32,000 bases of DNA from an uncultured Candidatus Scalindua sp. (GTDB taxonomy: Bacteria > Planctomycetota > Brocadiia > Brocadiales > Scalinduaceae): the NCBI GenBank assembly GCA_964344685.1, contig CAYFOK010000007.1:79771-111770 (forward strand), written 5' to 3'. Shown here piece after piece: positions 2,009 through 30,898 of this stretch (its first letter is position 1; every line of letters starts with the position of its first letter). The notes under the pieces were generated by a model. It saw only the letters and a program-made list of their open reading frames with translations. It ran no database searches and was not told where the DNA came from. Both the position numbers and the translations under genes were made by a program.

Positions 2009-2012
2009 CATA

Positions 2013-9856: not shown

Positions 9857-9857
9857 A

Positions 9858-12061: not shown

Positions 12062-12062
12062 T

Positions 12063-14026: not shown

Positions 14027-14027
14027 T

Positions 14028-14363: not shown

Positions 14364-14386
14364 TTTTTAGACTCCCTTGAATTTAA

Positions 14387-15604
14387 TTACACTCCCATTG
14401 CTATAAAAACAGCTCTAATAGCCATTAATCCCAATACAAAACTACCAAACAGATCAACCATCCAATCTAATGAACAAAAATCAATAGTCATGGATTTCCC
14501 AAAGAGTGTCATTGGAAGTGAACAGGTTGCACCGGTTACATTGATCTGGCTATCCGTGGCCAGAAGTACCAAAGGATTGGATGCAAGATATCCGGTAATT
14601 AAACCAGTCCAGTCCGTTTCTCCAACCTCAGAAACATCTCCCGGAAGGCTTGCGTCATAGGTTGAACTGTCCGCAGTACCTACAGAACCAGAAACAGTAC
14701 CAACAGGAATAGACCCGGTATCGTCAAGACCTGATATATCATCTATACCGTCCTGGTTAGCATCAGTAAAATTTCCTGGAGGTTGTGAAACAGGAGTTCC
14801 AGTACCACACACACCACCATAATCAATCCCAGTTTCGTCCTGATTCATAATACCGTCAAAGCAGGTTTCCGCAGGAGGACACACAAGACCAAAATTAAGC
14901 TCACACACTCCACCACAATCAACACCTGTTTCGTCTTGATTCTGGATACCATCGAAACAATCAGGCAGTTGTGGAACATCTTCTTCAAACTCATAAAAAT
15001 CAACAGCTAAATCCAAAATAGGACCTTGATCTGTTGCACCTATAGTGCCTGAATAAACATTCCCCATTCCTCCCGGAACCGGATCATTAAGAAAAGGGTC
15101 ACCGATATTAGTATCCTGAAGAAATGTATCAGTTGCACTAATTACTCCTTTCCATTTAACATCACCATTTTCATTCATATATATCCAGAAACCAACATTT
15201 GAACCGGTAATAGCATTTGCTAATGCCTGTGACATACTCGTATTAGTCAACGTTGTCCACTGTGTAGTATTTGACCAGATTGAATCCATCCCCGGTAATA
15301 CAGGATAAAACTTTTTACCATCATTTTGATTTGTATATACAATTGAATCGGTACTTGAACCAAGAAAGGTATCAATAAAATCAACCTGACCTGTTGAAGT
15401 GTTAACATTACTAATTTGTCTTAGAGCAATGTCTCCATTGTCTTTTGTAAAATACATAATTGCACCAACTGTTAACGCAGCAGCAACATTAATACCTACC
15501 CAGAGAGCAAGAGGTACGACTGCATCTGCCTTTCTGGTCTGGACATAGAAAGAAGAAAAGAGAAATGTGATAGTTAAAACAAAAACTATTAAATATTTTT
15601 TCAT
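14387..15604 (-). CDS. pIII-like adsorption / minor coat protein
   Basis: 405 aa. It has an N-terminal signal and a central duplicated Cys-rich module. The C-terminal GKSMTIDFCSLDWMVDLFGSFVLGLMAIRAVFIAMGV resembles the M13 g3p membrane-anchor region in pattern (GK..IDC...LF.G.F..L). Confidence 0.6.
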   Translation of the reverse strand: MKKYLIVFVLTITFLFSSFYVQTRKADAVVPLALWVGINVAAALTVGAIMYFTKDNGDIALRQISNVNTSTGQVDFIDTFLGSSTDSIVYTNQNDGKKFYPVLPGMDSIWSNTTQWTTLTNTSMSQALANAITGSNVGFWIYMNENGDVKWKGVISATDTFLQDTNIGDPFLNDPVPGGMGNVYSGTIGATDQGPILDLAVDFYEFEEDVPQLPDCFDGIQNQDETGVDCGGVCELNFGLVCPPAETCFDGIMNQDETGIDYGGVCGTGTPVSQPPGNFTDANQDGIDDISGLDDTGSIPVGTVSGSVGTADSSTYDASLPGDVSEVGETDWTGLITGYLASNPLVLLATDSQINVTGATCSLPMTLFGKSMTIDFCSLDWMVDLFGSFVLGLMAIRAVFIAMGV

Positions 15605-15612
15605 AATTACCT

Positions 15613-15735
15613 TTAACTATATGTAATTGTATGAATAACTTTTTTAACTACCCAAATAACCGCCAATAATCCCACGATAGTGGAAGCAAATATAAAAATC
15701 TTTGATGTGTCTATACTTATCATTGAATAATCCAT
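15613..15735 (-). CDS. 40-aa major-coat-like protein, paralog 1
   Basis: MDYSMISIDTSKIFIFASTIVGLLAVIWVVKKVIHTITYS: acidic N-terminus, one TM helix, basic C-terminus (a Pf3-type coat layout with no signal peptide). This is the internal ATG of track ORF 15613-15798. Confidence 0.55.
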   Translation of the reverse strand: MDYSMISIDTSKIFIFASTIVGLLAVIWVVKKVIHTITYS

Positions 15736-15812
15736 AGTTTTTTCCTGATAGAAGAATTTATAAAAATGTTGGCCAGCCTCTAGAAAGCCAACCAACACCC
15801 GGCAAGGAATCG

Positions 15813-15935
15813 TTAAGAACGATTAGCTAGTTTGATAACCTTTTTTACTGCCCATATGCCAGCAATAGCGGTAACTATTACACCTGCCAGAACAAGCACC
15901 TGAGTAGTATCAATGGCCAATGTACTGAAATCCAA
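15813..15935 (-). CDS. 40-aa major-coat-like protein, paralog 2 (not in the ORF track)
   Basis: My translation: (M)DFSTLAIDTTQVLVLAGVIVTAIAGIWAVKKVIKLANRS. TTG start with AAAGGGGGTG upstream. 18/40 identical, ungapped, to paralog 1. Confidence 0.5.
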   Translation of the reverse strand: MDFSTLAIDTTQVLVLAGVIVTAIAGIWAVKKVIKLANRS

Positions 15936-15964
15936 GACTATCACCCCCTTTCCTGTTATAAAGG

Positions 15965-16270
15965 TTAAACTGCGTATTTAACACACACGTAAGCCAGCAG
16001 AGAACCACAGACCACACCCGCCAGACCCATAAGGAAATTCTCTGACCATACACCCTGCAGGGATACGGAAGAGAGGAAAACATGTATTGAATTTACAGGA
16101 GCATCAATTGTCATATTGCCAGAGCACAGGAAATTCAGAGGGGTCATACCGGAAGACATTAATACATCGCCATTCACGCCATTGGAAGTGATATTGATCA
16201 GACCGTTATAATTATTAGAAGAGATAACCACGTCCGACATATCACCACAATCATAGTTAGTAATAGCCAA
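15965..16270 (-). CDS. hypothetical protein with a C-terminal TM anchor
   Basis: 101 aa. TTG start with AAGGAG 8 nt upstream. C-terminal LMGLAGVVCGSLLAYVCV. Confidence 0.45.
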   Translation of the reverse strand: MAITNYDCGDMSDVVISSNNYNGLINITSNGVNGDVLMSSGMTPLNFLCSGNMTIDAPVNSIHVFLSSVSLQGVWSENFLMGLAGVVCGSLLAYVCVKYAV

Positions 16271-16274
16271 GTTT

Positions 16275-16439
16275 TTAACTCCTTGTCATAATATTAAAAA
16301 GCCATCCAACCATCATGGAGAGAACACCAAAAGACAACACCAGAGTAAAAAAATAATCGAACATAACATTTCCGGTTATATTTACCGGAAGAATGTCCCA
16401 CACTCCACCCCAATCACCAAAAGCACCTATAACAAGCAT
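16275..16439 (-). CDS. 54-aa hydrophobic protein (not in the ORF track)
   Basis: My translation: MLVIGAFGDWGGVWDILPVNITGNVMFDYFFTLVLSFGVLSMMVGWLFNIMTRS. GGAAAGGTGTGGATT lies immediately before the ATG. It is nearly identical to the initiation region of the gene at 16774. Confidence 0.4.
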   Translation of the reverse strand: MLVIGAFGDWGGVWDILPVNITGNVMFDYFFTLVLSFGVLSMMVGWLFNIMTRS

Positions 16440-16528
16440 AATCCACACCTTTCCAATTTTAAGTTTAAGAGGGAGGCCAGGAGAATAGCTCCATGTACTA
16501 CGGAGCTAACCTCCCCCTTAAAAACAAA

Positions 16529-16774
16529 CTATTTTTGTTTACCGTTTTCTAAAGTAACACGCTTAACATCCATACGAATTTCATTCCCTGACGGAAAGAA
16601 CTTGTTGAAATCAACCTTGACAGGGTCTCCCATGTTTAGAAGCTGTTCACCTTTAACTTTCTCCACAGGAAGAAATACTCTAAACGTGTCTCCAAGATCT
16701 TTACACATCACTTTAAAACCTACTCCCTTATCAGAAGCATTTACTAAACTAGCAACCATTCCATCAACTACCAT
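16529..16774 (-). CDS. candidate ssDNA-binding protein (gV position and size)
   Basis: 81 aa from the internal ATG at 16774, preceded by GAAAGGTGGTGGATT. It is small and beta-rich-looking and lies immediately after Rep. The call rests on position and size only. Confidence 0.4.
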   Translation of the reverse strand: MVVDGMVASLVNASDKGVGFKVMCKDLGDTFRVFLPVEKVKGEQLLNMGDPVKVDFNKFFPSGNEIRMDVKRVTLENGKQK

Positions 16775-16796
16775 AATCCACCACCTTTCAAAAAAA

Positions 16797-17858
16797 TTAA
16801 ACATTATTAAAAAAATAATCAGAACCGGAATATTCATCTTCATTTTCCGGTTCTGATTCCTCTACATCGCTACCTTTAAAAAGCTTATGCCCGGCAAAAT
16901 CAATTTCTATAAGTCCAATCTTAACTGCTTCGATTACATATGAGGCCAACTCTGAGTTAATTCCGGTTTCCTTAAAGGTTTTATAGACAACGCCTTTAAG
17001 TGTTCCAAATGTCACATACTCTTTTTCTTCTTCCTGGGTAAGTTCCTCCATGTCTTCACCGCCTATGTCAGCCATGTCTTTCAGGCCGTAACAATTACCA
17101 AACTTTGAAACCATCCTTTTCCCTTTCATGTCAATAATGATTTCTTTTAATCGATCATCATTAATATCAAGACCAAACTTCATTGCATATTTTGAGATTT
17201 CCTTACCATACCCTTCTGTAACCGGCCTGATATCTGAAATCTGACCAAGACCAACTTTCAGAAGAACGTGCTCAAGGTCTTTCTTTATTGGGTCTAAGAA
17301 TGTTCCTTGTTCAGTATTCCGCATATTCACAACATGTCTATCAACGGTTAGATCGACTAACATATGAGAGTGTATATGCCATCCGGTTCCTTCTTTGTAT
17401 GTCACTTCAATATGTTCAACACCTCCACGTATATACTTTTTCCACCATGAACGCTCTTTTTTAAGCAGACTTGTTGATTTTTTGTAACATTCCAAAGCAG
17501 TCTTCAAACTATCCCTGTTTAATTCGTTTGCAGTAATGGTTAAGAGATGAGGGTTTTGCATATCTTTACCAAGTTTTTCCACCCTGCGAGACAGTATTGA
17601 CGCACGGTATGAATTGCACACCGGGCAAACTCTATCTTTACAGCGAACTTGCGGTTCAAAAAGCACACTTGATATATCTCCTTTCTTCGCTTTAACAAAA
17701 ATTGTATTCCCGCATATACCCATTCGTTTTGCTCTCGATTCCTGATCAACTTCACGAATAAGTTTTTCAATACGGAATAAAGTTTTTAACCTCCAACTAT
17801 TCTTAACGGTCACAACAGACTCTAACTTTTTCTTCTTCTTAACGGCACATTCACACAT
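16797..17858 (-). CDS. HUH rolling-circle replication initiator (pC194/pUB110 Rep_1-like)
   Basis: 353 aa. CKDRVCPVCNSYRAS (zinc-ribbon-like N-terminal motif), GWHIHSHMLVD (HUH motif) and GKEISKYAMKFG (catalytic Tyr motif) occur in the expected order. GGAGGT lies upstream of the ATG. Confidence 0.8.
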   Translation of the reverse strand: MCECAVKKKKKLESVVTVKNSWRLKTLFRIEKLIREVDQESRAKRMGICGNTIFVKAKKGDISSVLFEPQVRCKDRVCPVCNSYRASILSRRVEKLGKDMQNPHLLTITANELNRDSLKTALECYKKSTSLLKKERSWWKKYIRGGVEHIEVTYKEGTGWHIHSHMLVDLTVDRHVVNMRNTEQGTFLDPIKKDLEHVLLKVGLGQISDIRPVTEGYGKEISKYAMKFGLDINDDRLKEIIIDMKGKRMVSKFGNCYGLKDMADIGGEDMEELTQEEEKEYVTFGTLKGVVYKTFKETGINSELASYVIEAVKIGLIEIDFAGHKLFKGSDVEESEPENEDEYSGSDYFFNNV

Positions 17859-19588: not shown

Positions 19589-20395
19589 ATGAAATCTGTT
19601 CGCCTAGTCGCTGACAAAATAAAGGATAACCTGCGTACAAATATAATAGGCAGGGAGGTAATTACACTTGAGCGTACAGCGTCTACAATGGACATTGCAA
19701 AGGAGATGCTCAAAGATGGCGTTATAGAGGGAACAACAATCTTTGTTGAAGAGCAAACCCGGGGACGAGGACGGACAGGGAAAGAGTGGTTCTGTAAGAA
19801 AGGGAAGGGCTTGTTACTATCTGTTGTATTAAGGCCGGCAATTCAACCTGAGAAATCATATCTTTTAACAGTTTTTACTGCAGTTGCAATCGTAAAAACT
19901 ATCAGGGATATGTTCAAATTACCGGTTGAAATAGACTGGCCTAATGACATTGTGATCAATAAAAAGAAATTAGGTGGAATAAGTGTAGAAACGCAAAATC
20001 ATACCGGAAATCCGAGTGACTATACTGTAGGAATTGGTATTAATGTCAATTTGAAAAAGCATGAATTACCGGAACAGATCGATCAACCGTCAACATCTCT
20101 TACAATTGAAAAGGAGACATTTATTGACCGTACCAATTTTGCAAGGGCATTACTGCAGAATCTGGATTCATGGTACTTAATCTTAAAGGATGAACGTTAC
20201 GAGCATATTGTGGAGAAGTGGCAGGAATTTTGTTTGAACATTGGCAGAATGGTTCATGTACGTAATGCCAAAAAAGATTATGCAGGAATTTTTCTAGGGA
20301 TATCAAATGATGGAGAATTGATCTTATTGCTGGACAATGAGCGCAAAATAAAATTAAAAGTCGAACACACTATTATGGAAGATTACAACTTATAA
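19589..20395 (+). CDS. birA: biotin--[acetyl-CoA-carboxylase] ligase (group I, no N-terminal HTH)
   Basis: 268 aa. QTRGRGRTGKEW is the GRGRxGRxW biotin-ligase signature, followed by KKLGGISVE. Confidence 0.9.
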   Translation: MKSVRLVADKIKDNLRTNIIGREVITLERTASTMDIAKEMLKDGVIEGTTIFVEEQTRGRGRTGKEWFCKKGKGLLLSVVLRPAIQPEKSYLLTVFTAVAIVKTIRDMFKLPVEIDWPNDIVINKKKLGGISVETQNHTGNPSDYTVGIGINVNLKKHELPEQIDQPSTSLTIEKETFIDRTNFARALLQNLDSWYLILKDERYEHIVEKWQEFCLNIGRMVHVRNAKKDYAGIFLGISNDGELILLLDNERKIKLKVEHTIMEDYNL

Positions 20396-21929: not shown

Positions 21930-22432
21930 TCTTACCTTCTATCTTTCTGTTTTTTGTAACATATATATAATGTTAAGAATTCTAACCATACAAAATATGG
22001 TTGTCAAGTATATTTATATAAAAAACCCTACTAATGTTTATAGAAAGTCCTGTGATTTCACAGACTTACACATTTTTGCCGGTTATGCAGTTCCTACGTT
22101 CCTTGTTATACAAGCATCAAAAAGAGACATATGGGCTGCACTTTCTACACTAATTTCGATCTCATGCCGTTTGGAAGGATTATTTATTTATAACAAAGAC
22201 AATTATCCACAACGGGATTCAATCTAAATTGTCCTAAGATTGTTATTGACATATCGATATAAGTTTGTTATTTTCCCTGTTTCAATAATTTTGTTTGTGG
22301 CATAATCAAATTTCATCAATACTTTTAGACCAGCAATTTTTACAGAAACGGCTTCATAGTGCCAGTTTATTTATATTTGACTGGTATTATGAGTATAGTT
22401 AGATTTCTGGATGTTTTTAGGGAGGTAACATA

Positions 22433-22687
22433 TTGTCTGCAGAGAACTTAGAGAAGGATATTACTGCTATTGTAGCTGAAGTGACTGAGCTGGATGAGAA
22501 TGAGATATGGGAGAAAAGAGATGCCGATTTTTTTAAGGATTTAGAGATAGATTCCTTATTGGCATTGGAAATTCTGGCCCTTATAGAAAAGAAATTTAAA
22601 GTTCAAATTCCGGAAGAAAAACTCGTAGATATTACATCATTGAATGCAACAATTGAAATGACAAGGTCTACACTTGAAGGAAAATAG
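22433..22687 (+). CDS. acyl carrier protein
   Basis: 84 aa with TTG start after GGGAGG. The phosphopantetheine site is in LEIDSLLALEI. Confidence 0.85.
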   Translation: MSAENLEKDITAIVAEVTELDENEIWEKRDADFFKDLEIDSLLALEILALIEKKFKVQIPEEKLVDITSLNATIEMTRSTLEGK

Positions 22688-22788
22688 AAAACGAATGTAA
22701 CACGCTTCTTACAACATCTATTTGCCTATCCGCAAACAATTAAAGCGGTCAGGCAGTGGCTATTAAATAGAACGAAAGGTTATTACTA

Positions 22789-23238
22789 ATGTTGAACTTT
22801 GAGGAAGTAAGAGAGCTGGTTCCTCAAAAATACCCCTTCTTATTTATCGACAAAGTTATTGAGCTTCAAAAAGAGAGCAGAATTGTTTGCCAGAAGAATA
22901 TCTCTGGCAACGAGTCTTTCTTCACTGGACACTTCCCTGATTTTGCCATTATGCCGGGAGTTCTAATTGTAGAAGCCCTGGCGCAAGCCTCTATTATCCT
23001 CTTCAAAAAGAGCTTTGATACTGAGCAGTATAAAGGAAAGGTCTTTTTGTTAGCTTCCGCCAACGTACGTTTTTCTAAACCTGTTTTTCCCGGTGATCAG
23101 CTATTACTGGAAATTGAAATAGAAAAGGTTATTTCCAGTGCGGCAATTGTTAAGGGAGTTGCTAAGGTGGGAGACAAAGTTGTAACAAAAGCAACTTTGA
23201 GTTTTGGTGTTGCAGACAAAGATGCATTAACAGACTGA
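22789..23238 (+). CDS. fabZ: 3-hydroxyacyl-ACP dehydratase
   Basis: 149 aa. The hot-dog signature [23 protein letters not shown] carries the catalytic His and Glu. Confidence 0.9.
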
Positions 23239-23270
23239 AAGTATTAGTATTTGCAATAAAAATAAGAACT

Positions 23271-24491
23271 ATGGATAAAAGAATTGTAATTACCGGTGTG
23301 GGTGTCATTTCTCCAATTGGAAATCAGAATGATATATTTTGGGATGCATTAATTTCCGGCACGTCCGGTGTGTCTGAGGTCACATCATTCGACACTACTC
23401 CTTTTAAAGTACATAGAGGCTGTTTCGTCAAAGATTTCAATTATGATAGTTATATAAGTAATGGTTCAAGCCGGGAGATCGGTAAAGGCTCTCAATTTGC
23501 CGTTGCTGCAGCAAAGCTCGCTATTGATGACTCTAATATAGGTTTAAACAATATCGATCCGGAACGGGCAGGCGTTTCAATTGGAACAACTGCTGGTGAA
23601 ATTCAGATTCTGGAAAAAGTAAACTATATTAGGCACGAGAAGGGAGATGAAAATGTCGATCCCAGCCTGTTCCTTAAACACCCATGCGTAAATATGCCAT
23701 CTAACATATCTATTGAATTTGGTTTTAAGGGGCCAAGCACTATAATTCCTACTGCATGTGCAGCTGGAAACTATGCTATCGGTTATGCATGTGACTTGAT
23801 AAAATTAGGAAGAACAGACATAATGCTGGCCGGAGGCTCAGATCCGTTTTCTAAAGTGGCTTTTGTTGGTTTTAGCAGATTAAACGCAATCGCTCCGGAG
23901 ATTTGTCAGCCATTTGATAAAGACAGAAAAGGCCTGTTAGTTGGTGAAGGTGCCGGAATGCTGGTATTGGAATCCCTGGAAGGTGCACTGGCAAGAAATG
24001 CAAACATATATGCAGAAATCCTGGGTTACGGCCTGAGCTGTGACGGATATCACATAACAATTCCGCATCCGGAAGGAAATGGTGTTACTTCGGCAATGGA
24101 AAAGGCTTTGCAAAATGCCAAAATCAGTCCCGAAGATGTGCAATATATGAGTGCACATGGTACTGGAACGGTAGCCAACGACAAAGCTGAAACAATATCA
24201 ATAAAGAAAGTCTTTGGTGAACATGCAAAGAACCTGGCCATAAGCTCTATAAAATCAATGCTTGGTCATACAATGGGAGCTGCCAGTGCCATAGAGGCTA
24301 TTGCGTGCGCTTTAGCCATTAAAGAGAGTGTTGTACCACCAACTATAAACTATGAGACAAAAGACCCTGAGTGTGACCTTGATTTTGTACCTAATGTCAA
24401 ACGTGAAATGCAGGTTGATGTTGCTATGAATAACGCTTATGCTTTTGGTGGCAACAATAGCAGCCTCATACTAAAGAAGTACACAGGTTAA
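23271..24491 (+). CDS. fabF: beta-ketoacyl-ACP synthase II
   Basis: 406 aa with an intact Cys-His-His triad: [25 protein letters not shown]. Confidence 0.9.
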
Positions 24492-24535
24492 AAATAAGAA
24501 TTAAGATAAAAATTTTTTAGAGGTTAATTTGATAT

Positions 24536-25771
24536 ATGGATAATCGGCTGGTAATAACAGGAATAAGTATCTTGTCGCCAATCGGTGTTAACAAGGATGA
24601 GTTCTGGACCAATTTGACGAATGGTGTTTCCGGTATAAAAGATATCACGTTATTTGATGTCTCCAAATATAAAAGTAAAAAAGCCGGTGAAATATCAGAC
24701 TTTGATGCTAAAGAATACCTGGGCAAGAAGGGTATTCGCCACATAGACAGGACATCGTTATTAGTGTCTTCCGCGGCTAAACTTGCCATGGATGATGCCG
24801 GTCTAACTCATGATATTTACGATGCTGATGAACTGGGGATAGCAATCGGGTCAACATATGGCAGCATTGACAGTATCAGCTCATTTGACTTGGAGGGATT
24901 ACAGGAAGGGCCGACTTTTGTCAACCCCATGGCGTTCCCAAACACAGTCCTTAATGCACCAGCGAGCAGGGCATCTATTTTCTGCAATGCGACCGGTTTG
25001 AATTCTACAATATCTACAGGAACTGCCAGCGGGTTGGATGCTATCATTTATGCTTCAGATTTCCTGAAACTTGGCAGAGGAAAGGCTGTGCTAGCCGGTG
25101 GAGTTCATGGTTTAACTGCTGATATTTTCTGGGGAGCTTACAGTTCAGGAATATTGTCAGGGTGCAACAATGGAGACATCGAAATTTCTGCACCATTTGA
25201 TAAAAGACGTAATGGCTTTATAATTGGCGAAGCAGCCGCATTGCTGGTAATAGAAAGAGTTGAAGACGCGTTGGAACGCAATGCACAAATATATGCTGAG
25301 ATAAAAGGATACGGATGTACGTTTAATCCTGACAAGGTCTCTCATGTCGATATGGACACCACACAAGGAGTAAGGTGTATCTCCATGGCAATCGAAGATG
25401 CCGGAATTAGTTCTGACGACATTTCTTACATATCCGCATGTGCAAATTCCAGTGTGACAGGCGACAAAATGGAAGCTAAAATCATTAAAGACTATTTTGG
25501 TGATAACGCTGAAAAGATACCTGTGAGTGCAATAAAGTCTATGACAGGAGAATGCCTTGACGCATCAGGATCATTACAGTGTGTTGCCGGTATTTTGGCA
25601 ATTAAAAATGGTATTATCCCTCCAACAATAAACTTTCAGGAAAAAGATGAAGAGTGCAATCTGGATTGTGTACCCGGCAATAGCAGAGAATCAGAAATTA
25701 AAAATGTACTAGTCAACTCTTTTTCAGACACAGGTAACATTTCAACCGTAATCATCTCAAAATATTCATAA
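24536..25771 (+). CDS. ketosynthase-like protein lacking the catalytic triad (chain-length-factor-like partner)
   Basis: 411 aa, colinear with the upstream KS. At the triad positions it reads STGTASGLDA (Cys to Thr), SACANSS (His to Cys) and GECLDAS (His to Glu). Confidence 0.85.
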   Translation: MDNRLVITGISILSPIGVNKDEFWTNLTNGVSGIKDITLFDVSKYKSKKAGEISDFDAKEYLGKKGIRHIDRTSLLVSSAAKLAMDDAGLTHDIYDADELGIAIGSTYGSIDSISSFDLEGLQEGPTFVNPMAFPNTVLNAPASRASIFCNATGLNSTISTGTASGLDAIIYASDFLKLGRGKAVLAGGVHGLTADIFWGAYSSGILSGCNNGDIEISAPFDKRRNGFIIGEAAALLVIERVEDALERNAQIYAEIKGYGCTFNPDKVSHVDMDTTQGVRCISMAIEDAGISSDDISYISACANSSVTGDKMEAKIIKDYFGDNAEKIPVSAIKSMTGECLDASGSLQCVAGILAIKNGIIPPTINFQEKDEECNLDCVPGNSRESEIKNVLVNSFSDTGNISTVIISKYS

Positions 25772-25789
25772 CTTCAAGCGACAGTTTTC

Positions 25790-27223
25790 ATGAGTAATTT
25801 TTCCCTGAACAAATCTGAAATAGAATCCAAGTACGATGTGATCATTCTGGGAGCCGGGATTGCCGGTCTAATCTGCGGAACTTTTCTGGCAAAACATGGG
25901 AAGAAAGTGCTTATTGTTGAACAACATAGTATTCCCGGGGGTTATTGTACCTCTTTCAAAAGAAAAGGTTTTATTTTTGATGCGGCAGTTCACCATATTG
26001 GCGGATGTGGAAAATGGAGCGTAGTAGGCAGGTGCCTTAAAGAACTAGATATAAATATTAATTTTCTACATCTCGATCCAATGGATAGTATACATTTCCC
26101 TTCATTTTCCATTGATGTACCTGCAGAGATTGACGAATATATAGATCTGCTGAAGGAACGGTTTTCCTCAGAAAGTGATAAAATAACACTGTTTTTTAAG
26201 GAGTTTATTAAATTATACAGGGCCACTTTCAGCATAGAAAAGCATGATATGCTAATCAAATACCAGGACACTACTTATAAGGAGATGCTGGATAATTTCT
26301 TCTCAAACGAACAGCTCAAGATGACACTATCTGCACAGTGGGGGTACATAGGCTCTCCTCCTCATGAGGTTTCGGCTATTGGTATGTGTCAAATGCTGGT
26401 AAATTATCTGAAAGACGGGGCTTATTTCCCTGTTGGCGGCACACAGAATTTCGCTGATGCCATCACTCAGAAATTTATTGACTATGGCGGTCACATTATG
26501 CTATCTTCTAGCGTCGATAAAATACATACAGATGGCAATATTATAAAAGGAGTTACAACGAAAAAAGGAGGGAAAATTCCGGCTGAAACCTTTGTCTCAA
26601 ACATTGATCCCAAACAAACTTTTTTCAGCTTATTAGATAAAGATATCGTCGAGAACTCATTCTTTCGCAAGATCAGGAATATGAAAGAAAGTGTATCATT
26701 CTTTTTACTATACCTTGGCCTTGATAATAAAATAGACCTCAAAGAGCTGAAAAGAGGTTTTTACCATACATCTAATGATTTAAGCTTTTCCGGCAATGAC
26801 TGGTTTTATATTTCCGTTCCTACGGAAGTTGATTCAAGTCTGGCACCTGATAACAAACAAATAATTTCTGTTGTTGTCTCGTCAAGAGACAGTTACGACG
26901 ACATAGAAGATTGGGCAGCATATAAAGAGAAAATGAAAAAACATACAATAAACTACCTGGAAAACTTTGTACCAGATATTCAGGATCATATCGAGGTAAT
27001 AGACGCTGCCACACCTAAGACTCTTTATCGATATACTTACAACTCAAAAGGCGCAGCCTATGGCTGGGCCGTTACCGTAGACCAGACATGGTCAAACAGA
27101 CTTTCACACACAACACCCTTCAATAATCTTTTTCTGGCCGGGCACTGGACAAATCCGGGGCCGGGGATATGTGCGGTTGTATCCTCTGGTTGGAGGGTAG
27201 CTAATATGATTTTAAATAATTAG
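25790..27223 (+). CDS. phytoene-desaturase-family (CrtI-like) FAD-dependent oxidoreductase
   Basis: 477 aa. N-terminal dinucleotide fold YDVIILGAGIAGL..VLIVEQH..PGG, and a C-terminal LFLAGHWTNPGPG motif typical of the CrtI/amine-oxidase family. Confidence 0.85.
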   Translation: MSNFSLNKSEIESKYDVIILGAGIAGLICGTFLAKHGKKVLIVEQHSIPGGYCTSFKRKGFIFDAAVHHIGGCGKWSVVGRCLKELDININFLHLDPMDSIHFPSFSIDVPAEIDEYIDLLKERFSSESDKITLFFKEFIKLYRATFSIEKHDMLIKYQDTTYKEMLDNFFSNEQLKMTLSAQWGYIGSPPHEVSAIGMCQMLVNYLKDGAYFPVGGTQNFADAITQKFIDYGGHIMLSSSVDKIHTDGNIIKGVTTKKGGKIPAETFVSNIDPKQTFFSLLDKDIVENSFFRKIRNMKESVSFFLLYLGLDNKIDLKELKRGFYHTSNDLSFSGNDWFYISVPTEVDSSLAPDNKQIISVVVSSRDSYDDIEDWAAYKEKMKKHTINYLENFVPDIQDHIEVIDAATPKTLYRYTYNSKGAAYGWAVTVDQTWSNRLSHTTPFNNLFLAGHWTNPGPGICAVVSSGWRVANMILNN

Positions 27224-27234
27224 GAGGATAAAAA

Positions 27235-28698
27235 ATGAGAAAAATGATGCTTATCAATCCACATCCCCCAGGAAGGCATGGTGAGGAAAGTATAACTGTC
27301 ATAGTTCAAATGCCTTTAAACCTGGCATACATTGCAGCCCTTACACCGGGTGATTGGGAATTTGACGTAATCGATGAAAATATGGAACTGGCCATTGACG
27401 ATAACGGAGAAATCACATTTGACACAGTGGATATGGTTTGTATCACTTCTGTGACATATCAAGTGTCAAGAGCTTATAAAATTGCTGAGGCCTGCAGAAA
27501 AAAAGGTATGACTGTAGTAATGGGTGGTATACACGCTTCAGTAGTGCCTGAAGAAGCTTCAAAGTATGTAGACGCAATTTTCATCGGTGAAGCAGAAAAC
27601 CTCTGGCCACAAGTCATTAAAGATTTTGAAAACGGTGAACTCAAAAAGAGGTACGATGGTGGCCTGCCGGGTTTGTCAGAGATGAAACATGTATTTCCTG
27701 ACAGGGAACTCCTGAAGAAAAAATATGATTATAAATTTTCATCTATTGTAACAACAAAAGGTTGCCCAAATTACTGTGATTTCTGCAGCGTACCGACCTT
27801 TCAGGGGAAAAAATACAGAGAAAGGCCGTATGAGGATGTTCTGGATGAGATGGAAGCAACAGATTACAAGGGGCTCATGTTCGCAGAAGACAATTTTTAC
27901 GGTCATAGTAAGAACTCTGCCAACAGGGCAAAAGCACTCTTTCGTGGAATGATAGAAAGAGGTGTTAAAAAGGACTGGCTTGGATTTACTGCTCTTAATA
28001 TATCAAAGGATCCAGAAGTACTTGATCTTATGGCAAAGAGCGGAAATTTTGGATTTCTCTGCGGCATAGAATCAACAAATGAAGCAGTCTTGGAGAAGAT
28101 GAATAAAACTACTAACTTAAGGATTGGTGCTGATAAATATTATGACAGCGTTCAAAAAATACACGATCACGGCCTTGTCGTCTGGGGATCAATTGTCCTT
28201 GGTGCAGATGGTGATGACAAAGATTCATTCAAAAGAATGACGGAGTTTGTGCTCGCAAATAATATTGATGTTCTTACTTTCGGCATTAATTGTCCGTTTC
28301 CGAAGACAGCACTTTATGCAAGGCTGGATTCTGAAAAGAGGATCTTCAGAAAGAATTATCCTGAAGACTGGAAATATTACGATACTGCACATGTGGTTCA
28401 CAGACTTGTTGATATGACACTGGAAAATTTCATCGAAGGTATGCAATATATGTATGATAATCTATATGCAGGTGACAATCTGAGATTGAGATTCAGGAAA
28501 TCTCTTCAAACTATTGGCAGTACAACACATGGTAAGCGTAATGCAATGTTCGGTTTCAGAGTCGGTTCTGATTGGATACAGGTATTTGATCAAGTACTTG
28601 AAAACCTTCACAAACTATACGATTCGGGTGATTATTACCAGGATTGGTACAAGAGCAGTGCTGTTACCGTGCCATCAGACAAGGGTGTAGCTGTTTAA
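27235..28698 (+). CDS. B12-binding-domain radical SAM enzyme (class B)
   Basis: 487 aa. N-terminal cobalamin-binding-like domain (DMVCITSVTY...VVMGGIHAS), then the CxxxCxxC cluster TKGCPNYCDFCSVP. A strong RBS (TAGGAGG) lies 12 nt after the upstream stop. Confidence 0.9.
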   Translation: MRKMMLINPHPPGRHGEESITVIVQMPLNLAYIAALTPGDWEFDVIDENMELAIDDNGEITFDTVDMVCITSVTYQVSRAYKIAEACRKKGMTVVMGGIHASVVPEEASKYVDAIFIGEAENLWPQVIKDFENGELKKRYDGGLPGLSEMKHVFPDRELLKKKYDYKFSSIVTTKGCPNYCDFCSVPTFQGKKYRERPYEDVLDEMEATDYKGLMFAEDNFYGHSKNSANRAKALFRGMIERGVKKDWLGFTALNISKDPEVLDLMAKSGNFGFLCGIESTNEAVLEKMNKTTNLRIGADKYYDSVQKIHDHGLVVWGSIVLGADGDDKDSFKRMTEFVLANNIDVLTFGINCPFPKTALYARLDSEKRIFRKNYPEDWKYYDTAHVVHRLVDMTLENFIEGMQYMYDNLYAGDNLRLRFRKSLQTIGSTTHGKRNAMFGFRVGSDWIQVFDQVLENLHKLYDSGDYYQDWYKSSAVTVPSDKGVAV

Positions 28699-28716: not shown

Positions 28717-28768
28717 AAAAGGCACAGAAAGAAACTTTGTTATTGCATGTTATTTTTCTGTGCCTTTT
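28717..28768. terminator. bidirectional terminator-like hairpin between convergent genes
   Basis: AAAAGGCACAGAAA ...24-nt loop... TTTCTGTGCCTTTT (14-bp stem) with A/T runs on both sides. Confidence 0.5.
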
Positions 28769-28822: not shown

Positions 28823-30775
28823 TCATCTCCTGTGTTCCCATCTCCATTTATCAATTTTCCGCTTTTTATCAAACCTTCTTTTCATTAACTTATTATCCAT
28901 CGGCCTCTGAAAGTCTCTTCTGTGTTGTGTAGGCCTTAAGGATCTCACCGGACGTACGTATCCGCGGTCATTGACCGGACTCCAACTGACAAAGCCATAA
29001 CTAAAATTCACATCCCATGCCGCATTAACCCCCTTTTTCCTGTCTCCGGTCCATATCCATTCCTGATACCTGTCGAAAACAGGTGAAATAAATAATCCAG
29101 CGTTCTTTTTGTCTGGCTCCAACAGCGACATTGCCTCTTCAAGTGTTGGCAAACGCCAATCATGATATCCGGCGTAGCCTCTGTTATTAAACTTCTGCAG
29201 AAGCCTTTTCGCTCCATTCCAGGTTACATCTCTTGGAGTACCGGACTGGTGCCACATCAATCCGGTAGAATGATCTATTACGACATTTTCATTATTGATT
29301 ATATTTACCTCATAATTGTGACTGATAGTACTGTACCCCTTGAACCCGTTCCTATTTTCCTCATTTATTGCTATATGCTGTACCGACTGCGCCTGTATCA
29401 GAGACAAATCTCTTTTATAGTGGGAACGAAGGGATACTCTTTGGTTTTCCCATTGGTCAGTGTGATGTGGCGGCGGTGGAGGTAGAGACGTTTTCTCCAT
29501 TTCCAACTGCCCCCATTCCTCTTCAATCAGTCTTCTTTCCTTGTCTAATTCCTGCCATTCCTCTTCAAGTTTTTGCCTTTCTTCATTCAAGCTACTCTCT
29601 CTCTCCTGCATCTCCATCTCTACTCTTGATATTTCCTGTTCTGCGGTCAAATTATGACCTGCCTCTTCTTCCAGATGCCTCCACTCCTCCTCAATCAGTC
29701 TTCTCTCCTTCTCTAGACTCTGCAACTCTTCTTCAATCCTTTGCCTCTCTTCTTCCAGTATTTTATCATCATTATCCTCAACGTTGTCCTGCTGTTCGTC
29801 TATTACAGTAGACTCGCTTAATACGAATACTTTTACATCTTTTTCACTTTCTTCGCTCTTTTCCGGGGAAGCTCCCGTGACTTCTTCAGTAGTTGTTGTA
29901 GAAGCTGCCTTATCCTCATCATCCAATACGAAAATAAAATCACCTTTATCTAACTTTGGATGACGTATCCTTCCATACTGTGGGTGCTGGCTGCCATTAC
30001 TGTAATTTACCACGCTGGTATCCAGGTACATACCCAATTCCGAACCGGTAATGTACCCATCTTCATTATAGTCCGCATCTCCTTTTATTCCCTGTATTAA
30101 AACCGTATTGAATATGCTGTCGTCAGGAACCTGTTCATCTTGATTACCGGCTGTTATAAACTGTCGGACCGGACGGTTACTCTTCTCAGATATATCGCTT
30201 GGCACACTTTTTAAGGACGCAAACACAGATCCTGAAAAACACGAATCAAACAACATGAGCACATGCTTCGATTTTATTCGTAATGCGTACGTCTCAATCA
30301 AATTCATACTGATTGCTTTTTCGCTGAACCCAATAAGATCCTGATTAAGGACCGGACAATCTTTAGGTATGATGTATCCCAATTTTTCCCCTGTAGCCAG
30401 GGTCTCCGTTTCACCATGACCGGAAAAATAGAACAGAATCGCACGGTCTTCCTCTCTTCCCAATTCATAAGCCAGATTATTTAATTCCTCCTTGAGCTCT
30501 CTGGAGGTTGGATTTAAGAGCATGCTTACGTTAAACCCGAAATCTTCCAGCGCTTTCGACGTTTCCCTGATATCTTCCTCAACCCCCTGCAGATCAGGCC
30601 AGTAATCGTAATTACCAACCCCCACCACCAGTGCATAATAATCCTTGTATAGGTAAAGGCTCTTGCCCTCTTTTGAGACAACACTTATGCCGCGTGTGGA
30701 TGCAAATAGTTGTAACGGAACAATGAGAAGCACCAGTATGAATGCTAAAAAACACAATTGAATAGTTATTCTCAT
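28823..30775 (-). CDS. secreted caspase-like (peptidase C14) protein with a coiled-coil linker and a DUF1566-like C-terminal domain
   Basis: His/Cys dyad context ILFYFSGHGE and VLMLFDSCFSG. The signal peptide is MRITIQLCFLAFILVLLIVPLQLFAS, from the ATG at 30775 (GAGG upstream); the track start is 30814. An E/R/W-rich duplicated coiled coil follows. The C-terminal HDWRLPTLEEAMSL is typical of DUF1566/Lcl-like domains. Confidence 0.8.
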   Translation of the reverse strand: MRITIQLCFLAFILVLLIVPLQLFASTRGISVVSKEGKSLYLYKDYYALVVGVGNYDYWPDLQGVEEDIRETSKALEDFGFNVSMLLNPTSRELKEELNNLAYELGREEDRAILFYFSGHGETETLATGEKLGYIIPKDCPVLNQDLIGFSEKAISMNLIETYALRIKSKHVLMLFDSCFSGSVFASLKSVPSDISEKSNRPVRQFITAGNQDEQVPDDSIFNTVLIQGIKGDADYNEDGYITGSELGMYLDTSVVNYSNGSQHPQYGRIRHPKLDKGDFIFVLDDEDKAASTTTTEEVTGASPEKSEESEKDVKVFVLSESTVIDEQQDNVEDNDDKILEEERQRIEEELQSLEKERRLIEEEWRHLEEEAGHNLTAEQEISRVEMEMQERESSLNEERQKLEEEWQELDKERRLIEEEWGQLEMEKTSLPPPPPHHTDQWENQRVSLRSHYKRDLSLIQAQSVQHIAINEENRNGFKGYSTISHNYEVNIINNENVVIDHSTGLMWHQSGTPRDVTWNGAKRLLQKFNNRGYAGYHDWRLPTLEEAMSLLEPDKKNAGLFISPVFDRYQEWIWTGDRKKGVNAAWDVNFSYGFVSWSPVNDRGYVRPVRSLRPTQHRRDFQRPMDNKLMKRRFDKKRKIDKWRWEHRR

Positions 30776-30898
30776 AGAAATACCTCTATATATTATTTGG
30801 TATTCAATGTTCACTAAAAATGTGGTTCAATCCATCAGATTTGAGCTAGATCCTCTGTAAAAAATCTATTTCATACTTTTTGTCAGTAAATCTCAGGC

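What the first reader, a model, noticed from the sequence alone, without database searches (positions are those of the whole stretch)
22433..28698. ACP-FabZ-KS-KS'-CrtI-like-B12-rSAM operon: architecture of the proposed ladderane-lipid cluster of anammox bacteria
Six same-strand genes with short gaps encode a dedicated ACP, a FabZ dehydratase and an intact KAS II. They also encode a triad-less KS homolog, a phytoene-desaturase-family flavoenzyme and a class B (cobalamin) radical SAM enzyme. From memory, this exact order is one of the clusters singled out by comparative genomics in Kuenenia stuttgartiensis (reported as kuste3603-3608) as candidate ladderane (fused cyclobutane) fatty-acid biosynthesis genes. 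The chemistry of ladderane formation is still experimentally unresolved. The cluster also serves as a taxonomic marker for the host of the prophage. BirA (biotin ligase for acetyl-CoA carboxylase) lies 2 kb upstream.
Basis: partly seen in the sequence, partly recalled or inferred. Interest (0 to 1): 0.75.

Follow-up and report, generated by a model that had tools for sequence, protein, structure and literature searches.

The report
Known anammox ladderane-candidate lipid operon

Summary
Six + strand genes (22433-28698) are separated by gaps of 101, 32, 44, 18 and 11 nt. A strong RBS precedes the TTG start and a hairpin terminator follows the last gene.

The genes are, in order:
- an ACP
- a FabZ
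- an intact KS (C163/H296/H333)
- a triad-less KS' (T163/C302/E339)
- a CrtI-family flavoprotein
- a radical SAM (rSAM) enzyme with the B12-type domain architecture

The ACP is about 98% identical to crystallised Scalindua brodae amxACP and the FabZ about 92% identical to amxFabZ. KS and KS' best match the two chains of the Brocadia amxFabF heterodimer. The same gene order occurs in Kuenenia (kuste3603-3608), Brocadia and Tripitaka. All published signature residues tested are present.

All six exact proteins are already public, in clusters named Scalindua, so this is already known. The link to ladderanes remains inferred in the literature.

Caveats:
- Cobalamin use by the rSAM is not shown.
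- BirA adjacency is coincidental.
- The architecture alone is not an anammox marker. Colinear, divergent homologues with the same signatures occur on 58-70% GC contigs, one of them Acidobacteriota-like.

The parts
22246..22274 (+). Candidate sigma-70-type promoter (TTGACA, 17 nt spacer, TATTTT with an upstream TG), about 160 nt before the ACP start
   Evidence: 10 of 12 consensus matches. The number of promoter-like sites in the region is no higher than in shuffles (21 found against 21.4 expected), so this is a position-based guess only.
22419..22425 (+). Shine-Dalgarno sequence AGGGAGG, 7 nt upstream of the TTG start of the ACP gene
   Evidence: Read directly from the sequence.
22433..22687 (+). 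amxACP orthologue (84 aa). The phosphopantetheine attachment site is Ser41, in the motif DSLL.
   Evidence: Pfam PP-binding, E = 5e-14. It scores below every canonical AcpP cut-off in NCBIfam. It matches 80 of 82 aligned residues of S. brodae amxACP (PDB 7qv0_D, E = 3e-45). Identity to the Kuenenia, Brocadia and Tripitaka copies is 77-83%.
22789..23238 (+). amxFabZ orthologue (149 aa), a 3-hydroxyacyl-ACP dehydratase. It has catalytic His48 and Glu62, and Ile69 in place of the tunnel Gly of canonical FabZ.
   Evidence: Pfam FabA, E = 2.7e-27. About 92% identical to S. brodae amxFabZ (PDB 8ayi, 7qv0_A; E = 1e-83). Residues checked. Their meaning comes from PMC10139942. Its 90% identity cluster includes Ca. 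Scalindua japonica FabZ.
23271..24491 (+). amxFabF2 orthologue (406 aa), the active ketosynthase. It has Cys163/His296/His333, Lys328 and the gate residue Phe392.
   Evidence: Best PDB hit is 9s5h_B, the B. fulgida amxFabF2 chain (671 bits, E = 4e-201), against 370 bits for B. subtilis FabF. It passes NCBIfam NF005589 but scores below the fabF equivalog cut-off. Residues checked.
24536..25771 (+). amxFabFmut orthologue (411 aa), a catalytically dead, chain-length-factor-like partner. The triad is replaced by Thr163/Cys302/Glu339, and the tunnel residues Phe134 and Val138 are conserved.
   Evidence: Best PDB hit is 9s5h_C, the B. fulgida amxFabFmut chain (581 bits), against 295 bits for FabF. 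It scores below all FabF cut-offs in NCBIfam. Thr at the Cys position is the state published for Scalindua brodae. Residues checked.
25790..27223 (+). Phytoene-dehydrogenase-like (PDH) flavoprotein, the kuste3607 orthologue (477 aa). The FAD-binding motif GAGIAG starts at residue 21.
   Evidence: Pfam Amino_oxidase, E = 4e-26. It scores 165 against a cut-off of 238 for the NCBIfam crtI_fam subfamily. Its best solved relative is CrtI 4dgk, at only E = 1e-25. Identity to anammox copies is 57-83%. The Kuenenia orthologue does not complement CrtI (PMC4790861).
27235..28698 (+). Radical SAM enzyme with an N-terminal B12-type domain, the kuste3608 orthologue (487 aa). It has the CxxxCxxC motif at Cys177/181/184 and GGIH at residue 97. 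A strong AGGAGG RBS precedes the start codon.
   Evidence: Pfam Radical_SAM plus B12-binding. No NCBIfam family is passed: TIGR04072 scores 85.7 against a cut-off of 360. It is 79-80% identical to the Kuenenia and Brocadia copies and 91% to L001. The AlphaFold2 model has pLDDT 91.4. The nearest folds are AprD4, MgmA, TsrM, TokK, CysS and OxsB.
28717..28768 (.). Long hairpin followed by a U-run, a probable intrinsic terminator. It is probably bidirectional, as it lies between convergent genes.
   Evidence: minimum free energy -24 kcal/mol, z = -5.28, and 0 of 200 shuffles fold as well.

Best explanation
The locus is the Scalinduaceae orthologue of anammox 'Cluster I' (kuste3603-3608 in Kuenenia; Scabro02228-02230 plus the adjacent amxACP gene in S. 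brodae). It is a single operon encoding a dedicated, ACP-tethered, short-chain type II FAS/PKS-like module.

Steps shown for orthologues in the literature:
- The intact KS and the triad-less KS' form an obligate KS/chain-length-factor-like heterodimer.
- The heterodimer decarboxylates malonyl-amxACP and makes acetoacetyl-amxACP.
- In crosslinking assays the heterodimer reacted faster and more completely with the C8 probe than with C16; the C6 reaction was slower, incomplete and poorly reproducible.
- amxFabZ dehydrates 3-hydroxyacyl chains only when they are carried on amxACP. Ile69 restricts it to roughly C6-C8.

Steps that are inferred:
- The CrtI-like flavoprotein introduces or moves C=C bonds in the tethered chain.
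- The B12-domain radical SAM enzyme performs radical C-H activation or C-C bond formation on it.
- Ketoreduction, enoyl reduction and malonyl loading are supplied from elsewhere, because no KR, ER or MAT gene is in the operon.
- The product feeds ladderane lipid synthesis. This is the consensus inference and has not been demonstrated.

My confidence that this is Cluster I is about 0.97. My confidence that Cluster I really acts in ladderane synthesis is about 0.6.
For: Identity to characterised proteins:
- The ACP matches 80 of 82 residues of S. brodae amxACP.
- The FabZ is about 92% identical to S. brodae amxFabZ.
- KS and KS' best match chains B and C of 9s5h, at 671 and 581 bits. That is roughly double their scores against any FabF.

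Synteny: all six genes are colinear in Kuenenia L081, Brocadia L082, and Tripitaka L083/L002. Four and a half genes are present on the truncated closest genome, L001.

Signature residues all present:
- KS: C/H/H and the gate Phe392
- KS': T/C/E, with Thr being the Scalindua brodae state, plus Phe134 and Val138
- FabZ: H48/E62/I69
- ACP: Ser41
- rSAM: CxxxCxxC

Phylogeny: the window's rSAM sits inside the anammox Cluster I clade beside Scalindua-named sequences.

Public status: the exact proteins are already public, in 90% clusters named Ca. Scalindua japonica, Scalindua sp. and Scalinduaceae.

Operon structure: short gaps, a strong RBS and a terminator.

Functional statements come from PMC10139942 and bioRxiv 10.64898/2026.05.19.726425. 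Class-B fold relatives TokK and CysS were crystallised with pantetheine-type ligands according to their PDB entry titles, a precedent for carrier-tethered substrates.
Against: - No experiment links any Cluster I protein to a ladderane. This is stated explicitly in PMC10139942 and in the 2026 preprint.
- E. coli expressing kuste3603-3608 made all six proteins but no ladderanes or new fatty acids (PMC4790861).
- The heterodimer has so far shown only priming, not elongation, in vitro.
- Colinear homologues with the same signature residues occur on 58-70% GC contigs. One of them has Acidobacteriota-like flanks. The cassette's chemistry may therefore not be ladderane-specific.
- Cobalamin binding is unproven. 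By my recollection the nearest fold, AprD4, does not use cobalamin (fold match).
- No anammox catabolic marker lies in the window, so the host assignment rests on protein identity alone.
Confidence: 0.85

Rival explanations
1. The cassette makes a more generic product that is not ladderane-specific, such as a short polyenoyl, polyunsaturated or otherwise modified acyl chain. In anammox bacteria it would at most supply a precursor, or serve another lipid. Any cyclobutane-forming chemistry would lie elsewhere, for example in the kuste2802-2805-type or kuste3335-3352-type clusters.
For: - Colinear ACP-FabZ(Ile69)-KS-KS'-PDH-rSAM cassettes occur in L084 (60% GC, Acidobacteriota-like flank) and L088 (58% GC). 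With insertions, they also occur in L090 (66% GC) and L092 (70% GC).
- Their intact KS is closer to the window's (52-57% identity) than the anammox kuste2804-type paralogue is (45%).
- Rattray 2009 found extensive synteny with Desulfotalea psychrophila, which makes polyunsaturated hydrocarbons and no ladderanes.
- Heterologous expression of kuste3603-3608 gave no ladderanes.
Against: - The anammox orthologues form a tight clade conserved across the anammox loci examined here (Scalindua-type, Kuenenia, Brocadia, Tripitaka-type and L086).
- The cluster is highly expressed in Kuenenia.
- The C6-C8 preference of amxFabZ, and the heterodimer's preference for C8 over C16, match the linear part of ladderane lipids.
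- The lipids of the high-GC organisms are unknown, so they might themselves make ladderane-like lipids.
Confidence: 0.25
2. It is an aryl-polyene or other type II PKS secondary-metabolite cluster unrelated to membrane lipids.
For: The precomputed Pfam hits recorded for the Kuenenia, Brocadia and other FabZ homologues include ApeI-like and ApeP-like (aryl-polyene dehydratase) models; the window's own FabZ scan did not list them. KS/CLF pairs are typical of type II PKS. antiSMASH 'ladderane' calls are common in many phyla.
Against: - Best hits and full synteny lie in anammox genomes, at 57-98% identity.
- No aryl-starter, ammonia-lyase, LolA-like or acyl/glycosyl-transferase gene flanks the operon.
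- No cyclase or aromatase is present in the window's operon.
Confidence: 0.03
3. It is a redundant housekeeping FAS II segment making ordinary straight-chain fatty acids.
For: FabZ and KS score close to the curated FabZ and FabF thresholds, and each passes one NCBIfam model.
Against: - The ACP falls below every AcpP cut-off, and KS' below every FabF cut-off.
- KS' lacks the catalytic triad.
- S. brodae amxFabZ does not act on canonical ACP and disfavours chains above C8.
- Anammox genomes carry a separate canonical FAS II: kustd1386-1391, and Scabro02654 (FabF) and Scabro02655 (ACP).
- A flavin desaturase homologue and an rSAM enzyme have no role in ordinary FAS II.
Confidence: 0.02

Closest known systems
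Anammox 'Cluster I': kuste3603-3608 of Kuenenia stuttgartiensis, and Scabro02228-02230 plus the amxACP gene of Scalindua brodae (Rattray 2009; Javidpour 2016; Dietl 2023; Granatino 2026 preprint)
   Same: Same six genes, order and strand. Protein identity to Kuenenia is 59-80%. Identity to S. brodae is about 98% for the ACP and about 92% for the FabZ. All published signature residues are present, including the S. brodae Thr at the KS' Cys position.
   Different: Species-level divergence only. The ACP, KS' and PDH proteins are singletons at 90% identity clustering. The KS' triad is T/C/E rather than the V/N/E of Kuenenia and Brocadia. The KS' residue at the gate position is Asp rather than Arg. 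The flanking genes differ: there is no downstream Pyr_redox gene as in Kuenenia and Brocadia.
kuste2802-2805-type anammox cluster (ACPS, B12-rSAM, FabF, non-canonical FabB; seen here in L085 and L086)
   Same: A B12-domain rSAM next to a KS/degenerate-KS pair. The rSAM is 51-52% identical to the window's. This cluster is physically adjacent to Cluster I in L086, and a related rSAM-KS unit directly follows the Cluster I-like core in L088 and L090.
   Different: The gene order differs (rSAM first). It has no ACP, FabZ or PDH gene, and adds OYE-type reductase and enoyl-CoA hydratase genes. The degenerate KS has F/N/E. No such cluster is present in this window.
Type II PKS ketosynthase/chain-length-factor pairs (actinorhodin ActA/ActB; ishigamide Iga11/Iga12)
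   Same: An intact KS is followed by a triad-less homologue that forms a heterodimer and shapes the acyl tunnel. Iga11 (PDB 6kxd) is among the better sequence hits for the KS (348 bits).
   Different: The window's pair belongs to the FabF-like anammox clade, at roughly twice the score against 9s5h. In the alignments here the Cys position of KS' is Thr, Val or Glu in the anammox copies and Ala or Leu in L084 and L088; that many aromatic type II PKS chain-length factors carry Gln there is my recollection. The operon has no cyclase or aromatase.
Desulfotalea psychrophila FAS II-like clusters (polyunsaturated hydrocarbon producer; Rattray 2009)
   Same: They combine FabF paralogues, PDH-like flavoproteins and rSAM enzymes, and were reported as syntenic with the anammox lipid clusters.
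   Different: That organism does not make ladderanes. I did not fetch its loci, so per-gene orthology to this operon is untested.
Structurally characterised class-B-type radical SAM enzymes (AprD4, MgmA, TsrM, TokK, CysS, OxsB)
   Same: Same fold: an N-terminal Rossmann B12-type domain plus the rSAM barrel. Foldseek gives E = 1e-18 to 1e-13 and TM-score 0.56-0.68.
   Different: Sequence identity is only 12-20%. No curated family is matched. The reaction type cannot be inferred; by their PDB titles and my recollection these relatives include methylases, a ring-contracting enzyme and a dehydratase.
CrtI phytoene desaturase (PDB 4dgk) and the CrtI/CrtISO/CrtD family
   Same: Full-length Amino_oxidase fold, with the FAD-binding GxGxxG motif at the N-terminus.
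   Different: It scores below the crtI_fam cut-off, 165 against 238. The Kuenenia orthologue gives no lycopene in a CrtI complementation assay. The substrate is presumably an acyl-ACP rather than a carotenoid; that is an inference.

Membership tests
Anammox Cluster I (kuste3603-3608 orthologues) | Six genes in the order ACP-FabZ-KS-KS'-PDH-rSAM on one strand | tested here: met
   for the window. The same order is found in L081, L082, L083 and L002.
Anammox Cluster I (kuste3603-3608 orthologues) | A dedicated amxACP distinct from canonical AcpP | tested here: met
   80 of 82 residues identical to S. brodae amxACP, 7qv0_D. It scores below all AcpP cut-offs. Ser41 is present.
Anammox Cluster I (kuste3603-3608 orthologues) | amxFabZ with catalytic His and Glu, and Ile69 replacing the canonical tunnel Gly | tested here: met
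   H48, E62 and I69 are present. About 92% identical to 8ayi/7qv0_A. The criterion comes from PMC10139942.
Anammox Cluster I (kuste3603-3608 orthologues) | amxFabF2 with an intact Cys-His-His triad and the gate Phe | tested here: met
   C163, H296, H333 and F392 are present. Best PDB hit is 9s5h_B.
Anammox Cluster I (kuste3603-3608 orthologues) | amxFabFmut with Cys replaced by Val or Thr, the two His replaced by Asn, Glu or Cys, and tunnel Phe and Val retained | tested here: met
   T163, C302, E339, F134 and V138 are present. Best PDB hit is 9s5h_C. The criteria come from the 2026 preprint.
Anammox Cluster I (kuste3603-3608 orthologues) | Electrostatic asymmetry of the helix-loop-helix and partner helix that enforces heterodimerisation | tested here: inconclusive
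   Linear net-charge counts over the aligned segments did not reproduce the published asymmetry, even for Brocadia. The proxy is therefore invalid. A surface-potential calculation on a heterodimer model is needed.
Anammox Cluster I (kuste3603-3608 orthologues) | The rSAM and the PDH are orthologous to kuste3608 and kuste3607 | tested here: met
   The rSAM is 79% identical to Kuenenia's and lies inside the Cluster I clade of a 137-sequence NJ tree. The PDH is 59% identical to Kuenenia's and 83% to L001's, in syntenic position. No PDH tree was made.
Anammox Cluster I (kuste3603-3608 orthologues) | The host is an anammox bacterium (hzs/hdh present, Brocadiales) | not testable with these tools
   No catabolic marker lies in the 32-kb window. 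Indirect support comes from the exact proteins sitting in 90% clusters named Ca. Scalindua japonica, Scalindua sp. and Scalinduaceae.
Anammox Cluster I (kuste3603-3608 orthologues) | The product is a ladderane lipid | not testable with these tools
   This has not been shown for any orthologue. Heterologous expression was negative.
NCBIfam TIGR04072 'rSAM_ladder_B12' (lipid biosynthesis B12-binding/radical SAM protein) | Score at or above the curated cut-off of 360 bits | tested here: not met
   The window's rSAM scores 85.7 bits. kuste3608 itself scores 87, and the kuste2803-type, L089-type and other paralogues score 76-91. The model describes a different rSAM.
Class B (cobalamin-dependent) radical SAM enzymes | N-terminal B12-type Rossmann domain plus a CxxxCxxC rSAM barrel | tested here: met
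   Pfam B12-binding, E = 1.4e-10, plus Radical_SAM. C177, C181 and C184 are present. Fold matches to MgmA, TsrM, TokK, CysS and OxsB.
Class B (cobalamin-dependent) radical SAM enzymes | Actually binds and uses cobalamin | not testable with these tools
   The top fold hit is AprD4, which by my recollection has this architecture without using cobalamin. This needs cofactor analysis of purified protein.
CrtI-type phytoene desaturases | Passes the crtI_fam or equivalog thresholds and desaturates phytoene | tested here: not met
   165 bits against a cut-off of 238. The Kuenenia orthologue fails CrtI complementation (PMC4790861). It is a family relative, not a CrtI.
Canonical FabF (KAS II) | Passes the TIGR03150 equivalog cut-off of 493.75 bits | tested here: not met
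   KS scores 470.6 and KS' 354.5. KS passes only the broader NF005589 subfamily model.

The most novel reading that the evidence does not exclude
Cluster I would not be an anammox invention. It would instead be the anammox branch of a wider, older cassette family: ACP, Ile69-type FabZ, a KS/dead-KS pair, a PDH-like flavoprotein and a B12-domain rSAM.

This family also exists in high-GC bacteria that do not look like anammox organisms:
- L084, with Acidobacteriota-like flanks, 60% GC
- L088, named 'Planctomycetota', 58% GC
- L090, 66% GC
- L092, 70% GC

In L088 and L090 a second rSAM-KS unit resembling the kuste2802-2805-type genes directly follows the cassette, and L092 carries ACPS, enoyl-CoA hydratase and SDR genes downstream. 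The two units are also immediate neighbours in the anammox-type genome L086.

If this reading is right, two consequences follow. The two anammox clusters would be halves of one functional unit that must be co-expressed. And either ladderane-like lipids exist outside anammox bacteria, or the cassette makes a generic precursor. Heterotrophic carriers might then give the genetic access that anammox bacteria lack.
Probability: 0.4. Interest if true: 0.6.

Novelty: already known. Interest (0 to 1): 0.25.

Why it matters
Ladderane biosynthesis is a real, long-standing open problem, and this operon is the leading candidate for it. This copy adds nothing that the Kuenenia, Brocadia and S. brodae orthologues do not already offer. 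Those have been studied since 2009 and now have crystal structures for four of the six proteins.

Its practical values are modest:
- It is a secure host marker, by sequence identity, for the adjacent mobile element: the host is a member of the Scalinduaceae.
- It is one more natural sequence variant of the uncharacterised PDH-like and rSAM enzymes.

The side observation may matter more. The cassette, complete with its signature residues, occurs on high-GC contigs that do not look like anammox genomes, and there it is physically linked to kuste2802-2805-type genes. This qualifies the published statement that the cluster is 'encountered exclusively' in ladderane producers. It also suggests which genes to co-express in reconstitution attempts.

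Tried and rejected
- Promoter scan: the number of promoter-like sites equals the shuffle expectation, so no promoter is claimed with confidence.
- Terminator scan: the consensus scan missed the real hairpin because of its loop-size limit. Folding recovered it.
- ACP-FabZ spacer (101 nt): its fold is not significant (z = -1.95), its length is not conserved in other genera and Rfam finds nothing. No regulatory element is claimed.
- TIGR04072 'rSAM_ladder_B12': I considered it as the rSAM's family and rejected it. Neither the window's enzyme, kuste3608, nor any paralogue tested reaches the cut-off.
Only L001-L004 were useful, so synteny was obtained through exact-protein look-ups instead.
- Linear charge counts as a proxy for the published heterodimer electrostatics failed even on Brocadia, and I discarded them.
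- BirA as a functional neighbour: rejected. It is separated from the operon by two opposite-strand genes and is absent from the Kuenenia, Brocadia and Tripitaka neighbourhoods.
- Aryl-polyene and housekeeping FAS II readings: rejected on best hits, synteny and residue evidence.
- I could not establish whether the genomes carrying L084, L088, L090 and L092 have hzs/hdh. Only one flanking gene, in L084, was checked for taxonomic affinity. Just two of its listed hits carry taxon names, both Acidobacteriota.

Full report
**Observation.**
- 22433-22687, 84 aa, TTG start
- 22789-23238, 149 aa
- 23271-24491, 406 aa
- 24536-25771, 411 aa
- 25790-27223, 477 aa
- 27235-28698, 487 aa

The gaps between them are 101, 32, 44, 18 and 11 nt. 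The unusual TTG start is credible because AGGGAGG lies 7 nt upstream. The last gene has an AGGAGG site. Nineteen bases after the final stop codon there is a long hairpin at 28717-28768 (-24 kcal/mol, z = -5.3, none of 200 shuffles as stable) followed by a U-run. It lies between convergent genes and is probably a bidirectional terminator. The promoter scan is no better than chance. A TTGACA/TATTTT site at 22246-22274 is only a positional candidate.

**Domains.** Pfam and NCBIfam confirm every domain call:
- PP-binding
- FabA/FabZ
- two full ketoacyl-synthase proteins
- an Amino_oxidase/CrtI-family flavoprotein
- a B12-binding plus Radical_SAM protein

**Identity of the locus.** Comparison with solved structures is decisive for four of the genes.
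- The ACP matches 80 of 82 residues of chain D of 7QV0.
- The FabZ is about 92% identical to 8AYI and 7QV0 chain A.
- PMC10139942 identifies those entries as Scalindua brodae amxACP and amxFabZ.
- The two KS proteins best match chains B and C of 9S5H respectively, at 671 and 581 bits. That is about twice their scores against any FabF.
- These chains correspond to the Brocadia fulgida amxFabF2/amxFabFmut heterodimer of bioRxiv 10.64898/2026.05.19.726425.

tblastn of the six window proteins shows the same order in several loci:

| Locus | Identity range |
|---|---|
| Kuenenia (L081) | 59-80% |
| Brocadia (L082) | 62-83% |
| Tripitaka-type (L083, L002) | 57-77% |
| L001, truncated Hainich groundwater MAG, the closest genome | 75-91% protein, 81-82% DNA |

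All six exact protein sequences are already in public collections on one 211-kb contig. Their 90% identity clusters carry the names Ca. Scalindua japonica, Scalindua sp. and Scalinduaceae. The ACP, KS' and PDH proteins are singletons at that threshold. The source is therefore a distinct member of the Scalinduaceae, not S. brodae itself.

**Signature residues.** Every published diagnostic I could test is met.
- KS: Cys163/His296/His333, Lys328 and the gate Phe392.
- KS': Thr163/Cys302/Glu339. The preprint states that Val replaces the Cys in most anammox genera and Thr in Scalindua brodae. The tunnel residues are Phe134 and Val138, equivalent to Phe135 and Val139 in Brocadia numbering.
- FabZ: His48, Glu62 and Ile69. 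According to PMC10139942, Ile69 protrudes into the tunnel and explains the preference for short chains.
- ACP: Ser41.
- rSAM: Cys177/181/184.

One feature could not be tested. The electrostatic asymmetry said to enforce heterodimerisation was not recovered by simple charge counts, even in Brocadia. The proxy is inadequate.

**The two uncharacterised enzymes.**
- The PDH-like protein scores below the crtI_fam cut-off, 165 against 238. Its best solved relative is CrtI, at only E = 1e-25. Its Kuenenia orthologue does not complement CrtI.
- The rSAM passes no curated family. It scores 85.7 against a cut-off of 360 for TIGR04072 'rSAM_ladder_B12'. That model also fails on kuste3608 and on every paralogue I tried, so it describes a different enzyme.
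- A high-confidence AlphaFold2 model (pLDDT 91.4) matches the class-B architecture: AprD4, MgmA, TsrM, TokK, CysS and OxsB, with TM-scores of 0.56-0.68.
- By my recollection, AprD4 does not use cobalamin. The architecture is therefore confirmed, but the cofactor is not.
- The PDB titles of TokK and CysS show pantetheine-type ligands, a precedent for an ACP-tethered substrate.

**Mechanism.** What has been shown for orthologues is as follows.
- KS and KS' are inactive when alone.
- Together they form a KS/chain-length-factor-like heterodimer. It decarboxylates malonyl-amxACP and forms acetoacetyl-amxACP.
- In crosslinking assays the heterodimer reacted faster and more completely with the C8 probe than with C16; the C6 reaction was slower, incomplete and poorly reproducible.
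- amxFabZ acts only on amxACP-bound substrates and prefers chains up to C6-C8.

What is inferred:
- The flavoprotein desaturates or isomerises the tethered chain.
- The rSAM carries out radical C-H activation or C-C bond formation.
- KR, ER and MAT functions come from elsewhere, because none is encoded in the operon or the window.
- The product enters ladderane synthesis.

That last step is a consensus inference only. No ladderane has been made in vitro, there is no genetic system, and E. coli expressing kuste3603-3608 made none. The 2026 review still lists three competing schemes (PMC13459092).

**Distribution beyond anammox.** The rSAM homologues fall into tiers. An NJ tree of 137 sequences gives this picture:
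- The window sits inside an anammox Cluster I clade, next to Scalindua-type sequences.
- The tier at about 51% identity is the kuste2803-type paralogue. It lies in ACPS-rSAM-KS-KS-OYE-ECH clusters (L085, L086). Its degenerate KS shows the published Kuste2805 pattern F/N/E.
- Between these two groups lie two large, mostly unnamed clades.

Contigs from those intermediate clades carry the Cluster I core itself:
- L084: all six genes, same order, 60% GC.
- L088: all six genes, then rSAM-KS-x-SDR, 58% GC.
- L090: the core with two inserted genes, then rSAM-MIase-KS-KS'-Fer4-ECH-SDR and more, 66% GC.
- L092: the core with an extra rSAM, then ACPS-Fer4-ECH-SDR-MAT, 70% GC.

L084 and L088 keep an intact KS, a triad-less KS', the Ile69 FabZ and the rSAM cysteines. 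The KS and KS' triads of L090 and L092 follow the same pattern. Their intact KS is closer to the window's (52-57% identity) than the anammox kuste2804-type paralogue is (45%). In L084 and L088 the cluster's GC equals that of its flanks. The only two taxon-named relatives of a flanking L084 gene are a Terriglobia bacterium (74%) and an Acidobacteria bacterium (54%). By contrast, every anammox locus here is 34-52% GC.

These observations qualify the statement that the cluster is 'encountered exclusively' in ladderane producers (PMC10139942). The idea that related clusters exist elsewhere is not new. Rattray 2009 reported synteny with Desulfotalea, which makes polyunsaturated hydrocarbons and no ladderanes. 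antiSMASH 'ladderane' calls are also common in many phyla. I could not check whether the high-GC genomes have hzs/hdh, so this remains a lead.

A second lead concerns linkage. Cluster I and the kuste2802-2805-type cluster are immediate divergent neighbours in the anammox-type genome L086, and a second rSAM-KS unit directly follows the Cluster I-like core in L088 and L090. This suggests one ancestral functional unit.

**Context in the window.**
- BirA (19589-20395) is real. It is separated from the operon by an unknown minus-strand gene and a ParA-type ATPase. No biotin ligase accompanies the cluster in Kuenenia, Brocadia or Tripitaka. I treat the adjacency as coincidental.
It consists of tRNA-Pro (1929-2006), a tyrosine integrase (2013-3158), Zot (11153-12061), a secretin (12143-13504) and Rep_1 (16797-17858).

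**Verdict.** The locus is already known: its sequences are public, and its orthologues have been studied since 2009, four of them at the structural level. It does not make the ladderane problem more testable than existing orthologues do. Interest is therefore low (0.25). The comparative by-products noted above are the only parts that might merit follow-up.

Noticed in passing
window 1929-17858: An integrated filamentous-phage-like (inovirus-type) element. It comprises tRNA-Pro (1929-2006) abutting a tyrosine integrase (2013-3158, minus strand), a Zot/pI-like ATPase (11153-12061), a secretin (12143-13504) and a Rep_1 rolling-circle replication protein (16797-17858). Several ORFs between them have no Pfam match.
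   Followed up: partly
L084:4476-10476, L088:4338-10434, L090:4101-11437, L092:1751-9290: Cluster I-like cassettes sit on 58-70% GC contigs that do not look like anammox genomes. They keep the same gene order (strictly colinear in L084 and L088), an intact KS and a triad-less KS'; the Ile69-type FabZ was confirmed in L084 and L088 only. The two taxon-named relatives of an L084 flanking gene are Terriglobia and Acidobacteria. This qualifies the published claim that the cluster is exclusive to ladderane producers.
   Followed up: partly
L086:2035-12952; L088:4338-14838; L090:4101-17519: Cluster I and a second rSAM-KS unit are physically linked. In L086, which belongs to the Anammoxibacter-containing clade, Cluster I and a kuste2802-2805-type cluster are divergent neighbours 283 nt apart. 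In L088 and L090 a second rSAM-KS unit directly follows the core in tandem. This suggests the two anammox clusters are halves of one functional unit.
   Followed up: partly
window 27235-28698, and L081, L085, L086, L089, L084, L088, L090, L092 rSAM genes: NCBIfam TIGR04072, named 'rSAM_ladder_B12', is not reached by kuste3608, by the window's orthologue or by any paralogue tested: 76-91 bits against a cut-off of 360 where the model appears in the output, and below the reporting threshold for L084, L088 rSAM2 and L092. The name is misleading for this cluster.
   Followed up: yes
window 24536-25771 (KS' residues 163, 302, 339, 398): The dead-triad residues vary by lineage: T/C/E here, V/N/E in Kuenenia and Brocadia, E/N/D in Tripitaka, V/C/E in L086, A/F/D in L084 and L/C/D in L088. 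The residue at the gate-Phe position is Asp here and in L086, but Arg in Kuenenia and Brocadia.
   Followed up: partly
window 28823-30814 (minus strand); L001:5727-5852: The convergent downstream gene encodes a 663-aa protein. It has an N-terminal caspase (Peptidase_C14) domain, a Glu/Arg-rich repetitive middle region and a C-terminal Lcl_C domain. Only a 42-aa remnant of its C-terminus (74% identical) lies at the same position in the closest genome, L001.
   Followed up: partly
window 22433-22687, 24536-25771, 25790-27223: The exact ACP, KS' and PDH proteins are public but are singletons at 90% identity clustering. The FabZ, KS and rSAM instead fall in multi-member clusters (14, 212 and 206 members) carrying Scalindua names. 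The CLF-like and PDH-like components therefore evolve faster than the catalytic KS and the rSAM.
   Followed up: no
bioRxiv 10.64898/2026.05.19.726425, compared with window 23271-25771 and L081-L083: The preprint text says amxFabFmut is encoded 'just upstream' of amxFabF2. In the window and in every locus examined, the intact KS comes first and the triad-less KS' second, reading in the ACP-to-rSAM direction. This is the usual KS-then-CLF order.
   Followed up: yes
L089:3080-4516 (P0075) and its clade: A third rSAM paralogue clade, about 55-58% identical to the window's rSAM, includes sequences named Brocadiales, Brocadiaceae and Tripitaka. In L089 it is a solitary gene next to cbb3-type oxidase genes, with no lipid genes nearby.
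   Followed up: no
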